Positions 43,101 through 49,100 of a DNA stretch of 64,000 nt are shown piece after piece. Each line of letters starts with the position of its first letter. Positions within the stretch are counted from its first letter, which is position 1. Source of the DNA: Escherichia coli (GTDB taxonomy: Bacteria; Pseudomonadota; Gammaproteobacteria; Enterobacterales; Enterobacteriaceae); assembly GCF_002854065.1 (NCBI RefSeq), contig NZ_CP024147.1. The stretch is one strand, 5' to 3'. A program made the position numbers.

Positions 43101-46100
43101 TCTGGCTGGCAGGTAAACTCCTGATGATTCTCTTCATCATCAGTGTCATACACCCGCAGTTCGATATCACGTAGCAGGGTTAAATTCTGTAAGCCGTTGA
43201 GTACAGGTGACAGGCGTTCACACAGCGGGGCGCGGGAATGCAAACGGCGGTTAGCCTGCCATAAAAAAGAGAGGATCTGATTTTTATGCTCCAGCCCGGC
43301 GGTTTTCTCCTGAACCCGCTGCTCAAGTACGGCATAACTTTCGGCCAGTTCTGCAGACATATTGTTCAACGCAGTTCCAAGCATCGCCATTTCGTTGCGC
43401 CCGCTGATGTTTGCGCGTTGGGTAAAATCGCGATGGCTGACGGCACTCGCCATTGCCAGCAGTTGCCGCCACGGTTGTAGCAGTCGCGCCCGCAACCAGA
43501 TAATAGTGAACACCAGTAAAAGTGCCATAAATACCGCCATTACCCGATGGACCAGTACCACTGTCTCAATACGCATTTCCGTGGTGCGGTCAAAACCAGA
43601 TACCAGCTGATCAAGCCCGGCAACAAACTGGCTGACATCCGCTGATACCGTTTCTCGGTTTTGTGCCCGCATCAGCGCAGGGATCAGTTCATTACGCCAG
43701 TAATCTTGTAAACCCTGTAATTGCGCCAGTTGTCCGTCTCGTTCTGCTGCTCGAGTCAACTCGGCGCTAAATGCCGTTTGTTCCATCTCTTTAATTAAGG
43801 GCTTGTCTTTCTCGCTTAATGGCACTGCTGCCAACAGACGGTAACTTTGCATGCGCAGCGATCCCGCTTTGTTGATCGCATGGGCGCTGCCCTGAACGCC
43901 TTGCACCAGCCAGCCAGAAACCGCCATCCCTGCCAGTCCAATAGCAGTAGAAAGCAACACAATAAGCGCAACCTGATTAACCAGGGTGAGCGGAGAGAGA
44001 CAACGTTTAAGCATGTAAACCTCTTCCTTCAGGCTTTAAATGAGCAATAACCTTAATGAATGTGACGATACATTCTGGAATGGCAGTATTCTCGGCTATT
44101 GGCTGAAGTATACCCATACCCGGAAAGGGTTACTCCTTATTTGCCGTGTGGTTAGTCGCTTTACATCGGTAAGGGTAGGGATTCTACAGCACCGTGAAAA
44201 ATCTCATAATTTTTATGAAATCACTGTACTCACTATGGGTAATGATAAATATCAATGATAGATAAAGTTATCTTATCGTTTGATTTACATCAAATTGCCT
44301 TTAGCTACAGACACTAAGGTGGCAGACATCGAAACGAGTATCAGAGGTGTCTATGAGTCACTCATCCGCCCCCGAAAGGGCTACTGGAGCTGTCATTACA
44401 GATTGGCGACCGGAAGATCCTGCGTTCTGGCAACAACGCGGTCAACGTATTGCCAGCCGCAACCTGTGGATTTCCGTTCCCTGTCTGCTGCTGGCGTTTT
44501 GCGTATGGATGTTGTTCAGCGCTGTTGCGGTGAACTTACCGAAAGTCGGTTTTAATTTTACGACCGATCAGCTATTTATGTTGACTGCGCTGCCTTCGGT
44601 TTCTGGCGCGTTATTACGTGTTCCATACTCCTTTATGGTTCCTATCTTCGGTGGTCGTCGCTGGACGGCGTTCAGCACCGGTATTCTGATTATTCCTTGC
44701 GTCTGGCTGGGGTTTGCCGTGCAGGATACCTCCACGCCTTATAGCGTCTTCATCATCATCTCTCTGCTGTGCGGCTTTGCTGGCGCGAACTTCGCTTCCA
44801 GTATGGCAAACATCAGCTTCTTCTTTCCGAAACAGAAGCAGGGTGGCGCGCTGGGTCTGAATGGTGGTCTGGGCAACATGGGCGTCAGCGTCATGCAGTT
44901 GGTTGCTCCGCTGGTGGTATCACTGTCGATTTTCGCAGTATTTGGTAGCCAGGGCGTCAAACAGCCGGATGGGACTGAGCTGTATCTGGCGAATGCGTCC
45001 TGGATATGGGTGCCGTTCCTTGCCATCTTCACCATTGCGGCGTGGTTTGGCATGAACGATCTTGCTACCTCGAAAGCCTCCATCAAGGAGCAGTTGCCGG
45101 TACTCAAACGGGGGCATCTGTGGATTATGAGCCTGCTGTATCTGGCAACCTTCGGCTCCTTTATCGGCTTCTCCGCGGGCTTTGCGATGCTGTCAAAAAC
45201 GCAGTTCCCGGATGTTCAGATTCTGCAATACGCTTTCTTCGGGCCGTTTATTGGTGCGCTGGCGCGTTCTGCAGGTGGTGCATTATCTGACCGTCTGGGC
45301 GGAACTCGTGTCACGCTGGTGAACTTTATTCTGATGGCGATTTTCAGCGGCCTGCTGTTCCTGACCTTACCGACTGACGGGCAGGGCGGGAGCTTCATGG
45401 CGTTCTTCGCGGTCTTCCTGGCGCTGTTCCTGACAGCTGGGCTGGGTAGTGGTTCCACTTTCCAGATGATTTCAGTGATCTTCCGTAAACTGACAATGGA
45501 TCGCGTGAAAGCAGAAGGGGGGTCTGACGAACGTGCGATGCGTGAAGCGGCAACCGACACGGCGGCGGCGTTGGGTTTCATCTCTGCGATTGGCGCGATT
45601 GGTGGCTTCTTTATCCCGAAAGCGTTCGGTAGCTCGCTGGCATTAACGGGTTCGCCAGTCGGCGCAATGAAAGTATTTTTGATTTTCTATATCGCCTGCG
45701 TAGTGATTACTTGGGCGGTATATGGTCGGCATTCTAAAAAATAAATCTTAATATTTGATTATCCTTTGCGCGGCATGATGTCGCGCTTTTTTTATGCGTC
45801 ATTTAGTTACAACATACTAATGTTATATGGTTTATTTCGCCGGATTTCATTAAGAGCCTTTAATATGTTACCCATGGGGAATACTCCTTAATACCCATTT
45901 GCATAAAAATCTTAATAGTTTAAATAACTACAGGTATAAAACGTCTTAATTTACAGCATGTTATGCTGTAACTGTTAATTATCCTAAAGGGGTATCTTAG
46001 GAATTTACTTTATTTTTCATCCCCATCACTCTTGATCGTTATCAATTCCCACGCTGTTTCAGAGCGTTATCTTGCCCTTAAACATTAGCAATGTCGATTT

Positions 46101-49100
46101 ATCAGAGGGCCGACAGGCTCCCACAGGAGAAAACCGATGAGTAAATTCCTGGACCGGTTTCGCTACTTCAAACAGAAGGGTGAAACCTTTGCCGATGGGC
46201 ATGGCCAGCTTCTCAATACCAACCGTGACTGGGAGGATGGATATCGCCAGCGTTGGCAGCATGACAAAATCGTCCGCTCTACCCACGGGGTAAACTGCAC
46301 CGGCTCCTGCAGCTGGAAAATCTACGTCAAAAACGGTCTGGTCACCTGGGAAACCCAGCAGACTGACTATCCGCGTACCCGTCCGGATCTGCCAAACCAT
46401 GAACCTCGCGGCTGCCCGCGCGGTGCCAGCTACTCCTGGTATCTTTACAGTGCCAACCGCCTGAAATACCCGATGATGCGCAAACGCCTTATGAAAATGT
46501 GGCGTGAAGCGAAGGCGCTGCATAGCGATCCGGTTGAGGCATGGGCTTCTATCATTGAAGACGCCGATAAAGCGAAAAGCTTTAAGCAGGCGCGTGGACG
46601 CGGTGGTTTTGTTCGTTCTTCCTGGCAGGAGGTGAACGAACTGATCGCCGCATCTAACGTTTACACCATCAAAAACTACGGCCCGGACCGTGTTGCTGGT
46701 TTCTCGCCAATTCCGGCAATGTCGATGGTTTCTTACGCATCGGGTGCACGCTATCTCTCGCTGATTGGCGGTACTTGCTTAAGCTTCTACGACTGGTACT
46801 GCGACCTGCCTCCTGCGTCTCCGCAAACCTGGGGCGAGCAAACTGACGTACCGGAATCTGCTGACTGGTACAACTCCAGCTACATCATCGCCTGGGGTTC
46901 AAACGTGCCGCAGACGCGTACCCCGGATGCTCACTTCTTTACTGAAGTGCGTTACAAAGGCACCAAAACTGTTGCCGTCACACCAGACTACGCTGAAATC
47001 GCCAAACTGTGCGATCTGTGGCTGGCACCGAAACAGGGCACCGATGCGGCAATGGCGCTGGCGATGGGCCACGTAATGCTGCGTGAATTCCACCTCGACA
47101 ACCCAAGCCAGTATTTCACCGACTATGTGCGTCGCTACACCGACATGCCGATGCTGGTGATGCTGGAAGAACGCGACGGTTACTACGCTGCAGGTCGTAT
47201 GCTGCGCGCTGCTGATCTGGTGGATGCGCTGGGTCAGGAAAACAATCCGGAATGGAAAACTGTCGCCTTTAATACCAATGGCGAAATGGTTGCGCCGAAC
47301 GGTTCTATTGGCTTCCGCTGGGGCGAGAAGGGCAAATGGAATCTTGAGCAGCGCGACGGCAAAACTGGCGAAGAAACCGAGCTGCAACTGAGCCTGCTGG
47401 GTAGCCAGGATGAGATCGCTGAGGTGGGCTTCCCGTACTTTGGTGGCGACGGCACGGAACACTTCAACAAAGTGGAACTGGAAAACGTGCTCCTGCACAA
47501 GCTGCCGGTGAAACGCCTGCAACTGGCTGACGGCAGCACCGCTCTGGTGACCACCGTTTACGATCTGACGCTGGCAAACTACGGTCTGGAACGTGGCCTG
47601 AACGACGTTAACTGTGCAACCAGCTATGACGATGTGAAAGCTTATACCCCGGCCTGGGCCGAGCAGATTACCGGCGTTTCTCGCAGCCAGATTATTCGCA
47701 TCGCCCGTGAATTTGCCGATAACGCTGATAAAACGCACGGTCGTTCGATGATTATCGTCGGTGCGGGGCTGAACCACTGGTATCACCTCGATATGAACTA
47801 TCGTGGTCTGATCAACATGCTGATTTTCTGCGGCTGTGTCGGTCAGAGCGGGGGCGGCTGGGCGCACTATGTAGGTCAGGAAAAACTGCGTCCGCAAACC
47901 GGCTGGCAGCCGCTGGCGTTTGCCCTTGACTGGCAGCGTCCGGCGCGTCACATGAACAGCACTTCTTATTTCTATAACCACTCCAGCCAGTGGCGTTATG
48001 AAACCGTGACTGCGGAAGAGTTGCTGTCGCCGATGGCGGATAAATCCCGTTATACCGGACACCTGATCGACTTTAACGTCCGTGCAGAACGCATGGGCTG
48101 GCTGCCGTCTGCACCGCAGTTAGGCACTAACCCGCTGACTATCGCTGGCGAAGCGGAAAAAGCCGGGATGAATCCGGTGGACTATACGGTGAAATCCCTG
48201 AAAGAGGGTTCCATCCGTTTTGCGGCAGAACAACCAGAAAACGGTAAAAACCACCCGCGCAACCTGTTCATCTGGCGTTCTAACCTGCTCGGTTCTTCCG
48301 GTAAAGGTCATGAGTTTATGCTCAAGTACCTGCTGGGGACGGAGCACGGTATCCAGGGTAAAGATCTGGGGCAGCAGGGCGGCGTGAAGCCGGAAGAAGT
48401 GGACTGGCAGGACAATGGTCTGGAAGGCAAGCTGGATCTGGTGGTTACGCTGGACTTCCGTCTGTCGAGCACCTGTCTCTATTCCGACATCATTTTGCCG
48501 ACGGCGACCTGGTACGAAAAAGACGACATGAATACTTCGGATATGCATCCGTTTATTCACCCGCTATCTGCGGCGGTCGATCCGGCCTGGGAAGCGAAAA
48601 GCGACTGGGAAATCTACAAAGCCATCGCGAAGAAATTCTCCGAAGTGTGCGTCGGCCATCTGGGTAAAGAAACCGACATCGTCACGCTGCCTATCCAGCA
48701 CGACTCTGCCGCTGAACTGGCGCAGCCGCTGGATGTGAAAGACTGGAAAAAAGGCGAATGCGACCTGATCCCAGGCAAAACTGCACCGCACATTATGGTC
48801 GTAGAGCGCGATTATCCGGCAACTTACGAACGCTTTACCTCTATCGGCCCGCTGATGGAGAAAATCGGTAACGGCGGTAAAGGGATTGCCTGGAACACCC
48901 AGAGCGAGATGGATCTGCTGCGTAAGCTCAACTACACCAAAGCGGAAGGTCCGGCGAAAGGCCAGCCGATGCTGAACACCGCAATTGATGCGGCAGAGAT
49001 GATCCTGACACTGGCACCGGAAACCAACGGTCAGGTAGCCGTGAAAGCCTGGGCTGCCCTGAGCGAATTTACCGGTCGTGACCATACGCATCTGGCGCTG

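What the first reader, a model, noticed from the sequence alone, without database searches (positions are those of the whole stretch)
44100..46136. Fnr boxes and NarL heptamers at narK and narG are intact
Both promoters retain canonical Fnr sites (TTGATTTACATCAA and TTGATCGTTATCAA) and multiple TACYYMT heptamers, with the narG heptamers clustered about 200 bp upstream as expected for the IHF-looped architecture. This is known biology, recorded as a sanity anchor for the coordinates.
Basis: established knowledge. Interest (0 to 1): 0.15.

Follow-up and report, generated by a model that had tools for sequence, protein, structure and literature searches.

The report
Known E. coli narK/narG promoters, intact
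These are the well-studied oxygen- and nitrate-responsive promoters of the E. coli nitrate transporter (narK) and nitrate reductase (narGHJI) genes, with every characterised regulator-binding motif unchanged, so the finding is correct but ordinary.

Summary
The window is the E. coli narL-narX / narK / narGHJI locus, present in 5415 of 5426 complete E. coli genomes.

- **Fnr boxes.** The two quoted boxes sit at 44280-44293 and 46032-46045. They are letter-for-letter the sites bound by FNR in published K-12 ChIP-seq, each reported at -41.5.
- **NarL heptamers.** With transcription starts inferred from that spacing (44328 and 46080), strict TACYYMT heptamers fall at -214, -194 and -90 for narK, and at -208, -195, -185 and -89 for narG. 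This matches the published NarL-phosphate footprints at -195 and -89. All 15 other database-listed NarL heptamers (6 narG, 9 narK) are unchanged. The sixteenth lies in an insertion the window lacks.
- **Conservation.** In about 100 Enterobacterales species, the narG Fnr box, the -195 heptamer at a fixed 153.5 bp from it, an A/T-rich middle block and the -89 block are conserved in register.
- **Correction.** "About 200 bp upstream" is measured from the transcription start, not from the ATG.
- **Differences from K-12.** All lie outside the regulator sites:
  - a rare C-to-T change in the narG -10 hexamer, in 26 of 5426 genomes;
  - a hypervariable spacer patch at -123 to -109;
  - absence of K-12's ERIC-like insertion after narK.

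Verdict: already known; low interest.

The parts
44280..44293 (+). narK primary Fnr box TTGATTTACATCAA, centre -41.5 from the inferred transcription start at 44328
   Evidence: Exact consensus. Identical to K-12. Listed as a ChIP-bound FNR site (PMC3688515 supplementary file 6). Present as TTGAT-N4-(A/G)TCAA in about 50 of 61 species loci that reach narK.
44242..44255 (+). narK second, near-consensus Fnr-like site ATGATAAATATCAA (1 mismatch), centre -79.5
   Evidence: Read from the sequence. Identical to K-12. Poorly conserved across species. It overlaps the database NarL heptamers at -80 and -67. Its function was not tested here.
44111..44137 (+). narK upstream NarL heptamers TACCCAT (44111-44117, -214) and TACTCCT (44131-44137, -194)
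   Evidence: Both are database-listed heptamers (PMC2718512 supplement). A strict heptamer sits at exactly these registers in 33 of 52 species each.
44148..44177 (-). narK degenerate database NarL heptamers TAACCAC (-177), TACCGAT (-160) and TACCCTT (-154)
   Evidence: Mapped with 0 mismatches from the K-12 17-mers. Not conserved across species.
44187..44226 (.). narK conserved middle block (about -141 to -113), presumed IHF bending zone
   Evidence: The cross-species conserved block is cAg...cgTGAAAAaccAca.TTTTTt. An IHF ChIP-chip signal is noted at the narX/narK FNR site. IHF consensus matches are only 2-3 mismatches. Inferred.
44227..44241 (.). narK proximal NarL heptamer pair TACTCAC-T-ATGGGTA (-98 and -90), a 7-1-7 arrangement
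   Evidence: The block cTACtCActaaGggt is conserved across species.
44328..44328 (+). Inferred narK transcription start (Fnr centre + 41.5)
   Evidence: Inference from the published -41.5 spacing. Not mapped in this strain.
45869..45898 (+). narG distal NarL heptamer cluster TACCCAT (-208), TACTCCT (-195) and TACCCAT (-185)
   Evidence: Published NarL-phosphate footprint at the -195 region (PMC4549865). A strict heptamer sits at exactly -195 in 59 of 102 species, and within 2 bp in 74. Invariant in 8 diverse E. coli alleles.
45935..45971 (.). narG middle zone (about -145 to -109): A/T-rich conserved block, presumed IHF site, then a hypervariable spacer patch (-123 to -109)
   Evidence: The conserved block is tt.aaaaaaa.c.ttaaaaa. 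The best IHF-consensus match is AATTAAGACGTTT at 45939-45951(-), with 2 mismatches. Six SNPs against K-12 lie at 45957-45971. The patch is multi-allelic within E. coli. The IHF role rests on literature, not on a test here.
45976..46004 (.). narG proximal NarL region: TAATTAT (-101), TACCCCT on the minus strand (45988-45994, -89, high-affinity) and AATTCCT on the minus strand (-79)
   Evidence: -89 is the high-affinity NarL-phosphate site (PMC4549865). The block aT.ccaCtttgG.GGTAt is conserved across species.
46020..46026 (+). Database-listed degenerate NarL heptamer TCCCCAT (-57)
   Evidence: Identical to K-12.
46032..46045 (+). narG Fnr box TTGATCGTTATCAA, centre -41.5 from the inferred start at 46080
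   Evidence: Exact consensus. ChIP-bound site in K-12. A TTGA-N6-TCAA box was found upstream of narG in 105 of the 120 species loci fetched. Invariant in E. coli alleles.
46068..46073 (+). narG -10 hexamer TATCTT (K-12: TACCTT), carrying a rare C-to-T change at 46070
   Evidence: The engineered nar promoter primer places TATAAT on this hexamer (PMC5889552 Table 2). T allele in 26 of 5426 genomes against 5353 for the C allele.
46080..46080 (+). Inferred narG transcription start, 57 bp upstream of the ATG at 46137
   Evidence: Inference from the published -41.5 spacing. It reproduces the literature numbering -208/-195/-185/-89 exactly.

Best explanation
These are the native E. coli narK and narGHJI promoters, which integrate anaerobiosis and nitrate.

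1. Without oxygen, the [4Fe-4S] Fnr dimer binds the TTGAT-N4-ATCAA box centred 41.5 bp upstream of each transcription start. It recruits and activates RNA polymerase as a class II activator. Neither promoter has a usable -35 element.
2. With nitrate, NarX phosphorylates NarL. Both are encoded immediately upstream, at 41575-44014 on the minus strand.
3. NarL-phosphate occupies a proximal heptamer group (around -89 for narG; -98 and -90 for narK) and a distal cluster (-208, -195 and -185 for narG; -214 and -194 for narK).
4. IHF bends the intervening DNA so that the distal NarL-phosphate is brought to the Fnr-polymerase complex.

Shown here: the presence, exact position, identity to K-12 and evolutionary conservation of the motifs.
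Taken from published K-12 experiments: protein binding and activation.
Inferred: that this strain behaves the same way.
For: Locus identity.

Identity to K-12: the narX-narK spacer differs from K-12 at 3 of 338 bases, all outside listed sites (-200, -144, -108). The narG promoter differs at 9 bases, none in an Fnr box or a listed heptamer.

Database heptamers: 16 of the 17 K-12 database NarL entries map with 0 mismatches in the heptamer, flagged CACTGTA included (15 of 16 without it).

Published binding: the FNR ChIP-seq sites have these exact sequences, at -41.5. File 12 of the same supplement lists expression ratios of 0.068 for narK and 0.020 for narG, presumably fnr mutant versus wild type. 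NarL-phosphate footprints lie at -89 and -195, and IHF and FNR are required. In Salmonella, expression of the narK-derived sRNA NarS, which is driven by the narK promoter, requires NarL and FNR.

Conservation: stacking about 100 species on the Fnr box without gaps recovers the -195/-185 block, an A/T-rich middle block, the -89 block, the Fnr box and the -10 hexamer in a fixed register. The narK promoter gives an equivalent pattern.
Against: Nothing contradicts it. The limits are these:
- No transcription start was mapped in this strain. Both starts are inferred from spacing.
- The IHF site is not recognisable by consensus; the best match has 2 mismatches.
- Six clustered substitutions lie next to the presumed IHF zone.
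- The -10 hexamer carries a rare substitution.
- The generic sigma-70 scan flagged neither promoter. That is expected for activator-dependent promoters, but it gives no independent support.
Confidence: 0.96

Rival explanations
1. The motifs are intact, but this allele is regulated differently in degree from K-12. The rare C-to-T change moves the narG -10 hexamer (TACCTT to TATCTT) one step toward TATAAT, which could raise basal or Fnr-independent transcription. The spacer allele, a perfect 9-bp palindrome at -129 to -109, could alter IHF bending or the phasing of the loop.
For: - The T allele occurs in 26 of 5426 genomes, against 5353 with the C allele.
- The third hexamer position is C in most of about 105 species, and T in only 2.
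- The engineered nar promoter used in biotechnology carries TATAAT at this hexamer.
- The palindrome was picked up as a hairpin at 45951-45971.
- Six SNPs fall within 15 bp.
Against: - The third position of the -10 hexamer is among the less critical ones (established knowledge).
- The spacer patch is multi-allelic in healthy E. coli lineages and unconserved across species, which argues that it is unconstrained.
- The spacer length is unchanged, so helical phasing is preserved.
- No expression data exist for this allele.
Confidence: 0.15
2. The heptamer matches are chance occurrences in AT-rich intergenic DNA, and only the Fnr boxes are functional.
For: TACYYMT is only marginally enriched over the whole window: 39 matches against 30 expected, with 5 of 100 shuffles reaching 39. 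One match, at 46137(-), is plainly a coincidence with the narG start codon.
Against: - Local enrichment has shuffle fractions of 0.018 and 0.0016.
- Heptamers sit at exactly -195 (59 of 102 species) and at -214 and -194 (33 of 52 each), at fixed distances from the Fnr box.
- NarL-phosphate DNase footprints have been published on these positions.
Confidence: 0.02

Closest known systems
E. coli K-12 narGHJI promoter (Fnr at -41.5; NarL-phosphate at -89 and the -195 region; IHF in between)
   Same: - Same locus and the same Fnr box.
- The same seven heptamers, at -208, -195, -185, -101, -89, -79 and -57.
- The same spacing to the ATG (57 bp from the inferred start).
- 363 of 372 bases are identical from the narK terminator to narG.
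   Different: - One rare SNP in the -10 hexamer (TATCTT against TACCTT).
- Six SNPs at -123 to -109, plus SNPs at -181 and -221.
- The window lacks K-12's 123-bp ERIC-like insertion after narK. That insertion holds K-12's far-upstream database heptamer TACTTTA, at about -393.
E. coli K-12 narK promoter (Fnr at -41.5 and -79.5, multiple NarL heptamers, IHF)
   Same: - Both Fnr-type sites are identical.
- All nine accepted database heptamers are identical.
- The spacer length is the same (338 bp).
   Different: Three SNPs, at -200, -144 and -108, all outside listed sites.
NarL/NarP '7-2-7' promoters (fdnG, nirB, nrfA, napF)
   Same: They use the same regulators (Fnr plus NarL) and the same TACYYMT heptamer.
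   Different: Neither promoter has a strict 7-2-7 inverted pair:
- narG -89 reads TTATCCT-AA-AGGGGTA, with 2 mismatches in the left half.
- narK -98/-90 is a 7-1-7 arrangement.
This agrees with the published statement that narG lacks 7-2-7 sites.

Membership tests
narGHJI promoter (class II Fnr + NarL + IHF) | Consensus Fnr box TTGAT-N4-ATCAA centred at -41.5 | tested here: met
   The box at 46032-46045 is identical to the ChIP-bound K-12 site. The published position is -41.5. The start itself is inferred, not mapped.
narGHJI promoter (class II Fnr + NarL + IHF) | Distal NarL heptamer cluster around -195 | tested here: met
   TACCCAT, TACTCCT and TACCCAT lie at -208, -195 and -185. They are conserved in register across species. 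Published footprint.
narGHJI promoter (class II Fnr + NarL + IHF) | High-affinity proximal NarL site at -89 | tested here: met
   TACCCCT on the minus strand at 45988-45994, centre -89.
narGHJI promoter (class II Fnr + NarL + IHF) | IHF site between the NarL clusters | tested here: inconclusive
   The best consensus match has 2 mismatches (45939-45951, centre -135). An A/T-rich block is conserved across species. The sequence is identical to K-12 down to -124, then carries six SNPs. The primary IHF footprint papers are not held in the library.
narGHJI promoter (class II Fnr + NarL + IHF) | -10 hexamer about 29 bp from the Fnr centre, with no -35 element | tested here: met
   TATCTT lies at -12 to -7 and differs from K-12's TACCTT by one base. 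No -35/-10 pair was found by the scan.
narGHJI promoter (class II Fnr + NarL + IHF) | Drives narG, with narXL encoded nearby | tested here: met
   The TIGR01580 narG equivalog scores 2598 bits. NarX and NarL equivalogs also match.
narGHJI promoter (class II Fnr + NarL + IHF) | Mapped transcription start; Fnr- and NarL-dependent induction | not testable with these tools
   This needs RNA 5' end mapping and reporter assays in this strain. Only published K-12 data are available.
narK promoter | Fnr box at -41.5, plus a secondary site at -79.5 | tested here: met
   The sites at 44280-44293 and 44242-44255 are both identical to K-12. The primary site is ChIP-bound.
narK promoter | NarL heptamers as footprinted and listed for K-12 | tested here: met
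   All nine accepted database heptamers map with 0 mismatches. The -214, -194 and -98 heptamers are conserved across species.
NarL/NarP 7-2-7 site class | Inverted heptamer pair with a 2-bp spacer | tested here: not met
   The best matches have 2 mismatches (narG) and 3 mismatches (narK). This is consistent with the literature on narG.

The most novel reading that the evidence does not exclude
The window's narG promoter combines two features: a rare, derived -10 change toward consensus (C-to-T at -10, in 0.5% of complete E. coli genomes) and a perfectly palindromic allele of the hypervariable spacer beside the IHF zone. Together these could give this small lineage measurably higher basal, or partly Fnr-independent, nitrate reductase expression. 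That would be a natural promoter-up variant of a textbook promoter.
Probability: 0.1. Interest if true: 0.2.

Novelty: already known. Interest (0 to 1): 0.06.

Why it matters
Its main value is as a coordinate anchor. It fixes the window as the E. coli narXL-narK-narGHJI locus and shows the annotation frame is right. It also shows that consensus matches are not enough by themselves. The third perfect Fnr box in the window, inside the purU homologue, is listed as predicted but not bound in published ChIP data. The nar boxes, by contrast, are supported by position, conservation and binding data. The minor allelic differences matter only to someone studying natural variation in nitrate-respiration regulation.

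Tried and rejected
- **Primary papers.** I tried to read the original mapping and footprint papers (Kolesnikow 1992; Walker and DeMoss 1992). Neither is held in the library. Start sites and the IHF position therefore rest on secondary sources and on the self-consistent numbering.
- **Sigma-70 scan.** The generic promoter scan found neither promoter. This is uninformative for activator-dependent promoters.
- **Rfam.** A search of 43900-46300 gave only sub-threshold chance hits and matched no NarS family. The best was L20_leader at 25 bits against a threshold of 58.7.
- **IHF consensus.** The search gave no match with 1 mismatch or fewer in the expected zone.
- **Spacer origin.** I considered whether the clustered SNPs at -123 to -109 reflect a single quasi-palindrome template-switch event. 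I rejected this as the sole explanation, because both arms differ from K-12 and intermediate, mosaic alleles exist in other strains.
- **Chance origin of the heptamers.** Considered and rejected; see the rival explanations.
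Full report
**What is at these coordinates.**
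The sequence from 43500 to 46700 and the ORF list show four features:
- a 598-aa gene on the minus strand ending at 44014;
- a 463-aa gene at 44353-45744;
- a 392-bp spacer;
- a 1247-aa gene starting at 46137.

NCBIfam models identify these as NarX, NarK and NarG, and they identify NarL just upstream. Megablast of 44000-46200 against 5426 complete E. coli genomes finds the region in 5415. Two strains, 100416 and CUWW06, are 100% identical, and the region is annotated narX / narK / narG. The window is therefore the E. coli narXL-narK-narGHJI locus.

**Checking the observation.**
Both quoted Fnr boxes exist, at 44280-44293 and 46032-46045. Only three perfect TTGATNNNNATCAA matches occur in the 64 kb, against 0.09 expected.

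Strict TACYYMT heptamers occur three times in the narX-narK spacer and four times in the narK-narG spacer. A fifth match in the latter is the reverse complement of the narG ATG and is a coincidence.

Dinucleotide shuffles of each spacer expect about 0.5 matches. The fractions of shuffles reaching the observed counts are 0.018 and 0.0016. The narG upstream region is the densest 400-bp stretch for the motif in the window.

Over the whole window, enrichment is marginal at 39 against 30 expected. The motif count alone would not be persuasive.

**Positions.**
Published K-12 data place both Fnr sites at -41.5 (PMC3688515 Table 1). Applying that spacing gives starts at 44328 for narK and 46080 for narG.

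The narG heptamers then fall at -208, -195, -185 and -89, and the narK heptamers at -214, -194 and -90. This reproduces the literature numbering. [quoted passage not shown]

Measured from the ATG it is about 250-265 bp.

**Identity with the characterised promoters.**
- Against K-12 MG1655, the narX-narK spacer has 3 differences in 338 bp, at -200, -144 and -108.
- The narG promoter has 9 differences, at -221, -181, six between -123 and -109, and -10.
- The supplement of PMC2718512 lists the K-12 database NarL sites with their sequence context. For narG there are 7 and for narK 10, one of which (CACTGTA) the paper flags for removal.
- Sixteen of these 17 entries (CACTGTA included) map to the window with no mismatch in the heptamer. 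Setting CACTGTA aside, that is 15 of 16.
- The seventeenth, TACTTTA, lies about 393 bp upstream in K-12. It sits inside a 123-bp ERIC-like insertion directly after the narK stop codon, which the window lacks.
- Supplementary file 6 of PMC3688515 lists TTGATTTACATCAA (narX/narK) and TTGATCGTTATCAA (narG) as predicted sites under FNR ChIP peaks. After the 777-bp shift between K-12 genome versions, the listed coordinates correspond exactly to the window boxes.
- File 12 of the same supplement lists expression ratios of 0.068 for narK and 0.020 for narG, presumably fnr mutant relative to wild type.

**Evolutionary support.**
One scan of species-representative genomes with the degenerate 5' coding sequence of narG returned 120 loci from Enterobacterales and a few Vibrio. 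A TTGA-N6-TCAA box was found upstream of narG in 105 of the 120.

I stacked 102 sequences without gaps, anchored on the Fnr box. The stack shows conserved blocks at:
- the -195 and -185 heptamers (a strict heptamer at exactly -195 in 59 species, and within 2 bp in 74);
- an A/T-rich block at about -145 to -125;
- the -89 block;
- the Fnr box;
- a -10 hexamer with consensus TAcctT.

The unchanged register over about 150 bp is what a looped, phase-dependent architecture predicts.

The same treatment of the narK promoter, with 52 sequences, shows conserved -214 and -194 heptamers, a middle block at about -141 to -113, the -98/-90 heptamer pair and the Fnr box.

Eight diverse E. coli alleles are invariant at every strict heptamer and at the Fnr box.

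**Mechanism.**
Anaerobic Fnr binds at -41.5 and activates RNA polymerase directly. Nitrate, acting through NarX, phosphorylates NarL. NarL-phosphate fills the proximal and distal heptamer groups, and IHF bends the DNA between them.

Motif presence, spacing and conservation are shown here. Binding and activation come from published K-12 experiments. Extension to this strain is inference from near-identity.

The IHF element is the weakest link. The best consensus match has 2 mismatches (45939-45951, centre -135), and the primary footprint papers are not held.

**Differences worth recording.**
1. *Rare -10 allele.* The narG -10 hexamer reads TATCTT, against TACCTT in K-12. The location of the hexamer is supported by an engineered nar promoter primer that places TATAAT there (PMC5889552 Table 2). 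The exact 51-mer with T occurs in only 26 of 5426 genomes, against 5353 for the C allele. Across species the third position is nearly always C.
2. *Hypervariable spacer.* The -123 to -109 patch is multi-allelic in E. coli. The window-type 51-mer was found in 1169 genomes and the K-12 type in 2455. At least three further alleles appear among six other strains sampled. In the window the patch forms a perfect palindrome, TTACAGCATgttATGCTGTAA. Across species the patch is unconserved, so it is probably a neutral spacer.
3. *No ERIC-like insertion.* Without it, the narK 3' UTR is short. The equivalent of the NarS sRNA would be about 61 nt (45733-45793), like the 63-nt Salmonella form and unlike the longer K-12 form (PMC7038943).

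**Verdict.**
The feature is already known, and none of the differences touches a characterised Fnr or NarL site. Interest is low.

Noticed in passing
window 46068-46073 (SNP at 46070): The narG -10 hexamer is TATCTT instead of K-12's TACCTT. The T allele is rare: 26 of 5426 complete E. coli genomes, against 5353 with the C allele. It is derived relative to about 105 other Enterobacterales and moves the hexamer toward TATAAT.
   Followed up: partly
window 45951-45971: A perfect 9-bp inverted repeat with a 3-nt loop (TTACAGCATgttATGCTGTAA) is created by six clustered SNPs relative to K-12, at -123 to -109 of narG. The patch is multi-allelic and mosaic in E. coli and unconserved between species.
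   Followed up: partly
window 45745-45749 (junction); K-12 locus L001 5350-5477: K-12 carries a roughly 123-bp ERIC-like element directly after the narK stop codon, and the window lacks it. About 40% of a spread sample of E. coli genomes have the element. One K-12 database 'NarL heptamer' (TACTTTA) lies inside this mobile repeat, which casts doubt on that annotation.
   Followed up: partly
window 45733-45793: This is the short (about 61 nt) equivalent of the narK 3'UTR-derived sRNA NarS. It ends in the narK terminator hairpin (45768-45786) plus a T-run. It resembles the 63-nt Salmonella form rather than the longer K-12 form. Rfam 15 returned no NarS family match.
   Followed up: partly
L003 (strain ECNB21-M121) about 2058-2835; window-equivalent 45849/45850: Several E. 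coli strains (hits H4-H7) carry an IS1A insertion between narK and narG, at -231 relative to the narG start. It has an 8-9 bp target duplication (GGATTTCA) and lies about 20 bp upstream of the -208 NarL heptamer, so the known promoter elements are left intact.
   Followed up: partly
window 54423-54436: A third perfect Fnr consensus (TTGATAAGCATCAA) lies inside the purU homologue. The K-12 FNR ChIP-seq study lists this same site as predicted but not bound (PMC3688515 supplementary file 6).
   Followed up: yes
window 44242-44255: A second, near-consensus Fnr-type site (ATGATAAATATCAA) lies at -79.5 of narK, overlapping two degenerate database NarL heptamers. It is identical to K-12 but poorly conserved outside Escherichia.
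   Followed up: partly
window 44227-44241 and 45979-45994: Neither promoter has a strict NarL 7-2-7 site. narK has a 7-1-7 pair (TACTCAC-T-ATGGGTA). The narG -89 site is a half-degenerate 7-2-7 (TTATCCT-AA-AGGGGTA).
   Followed up: yes
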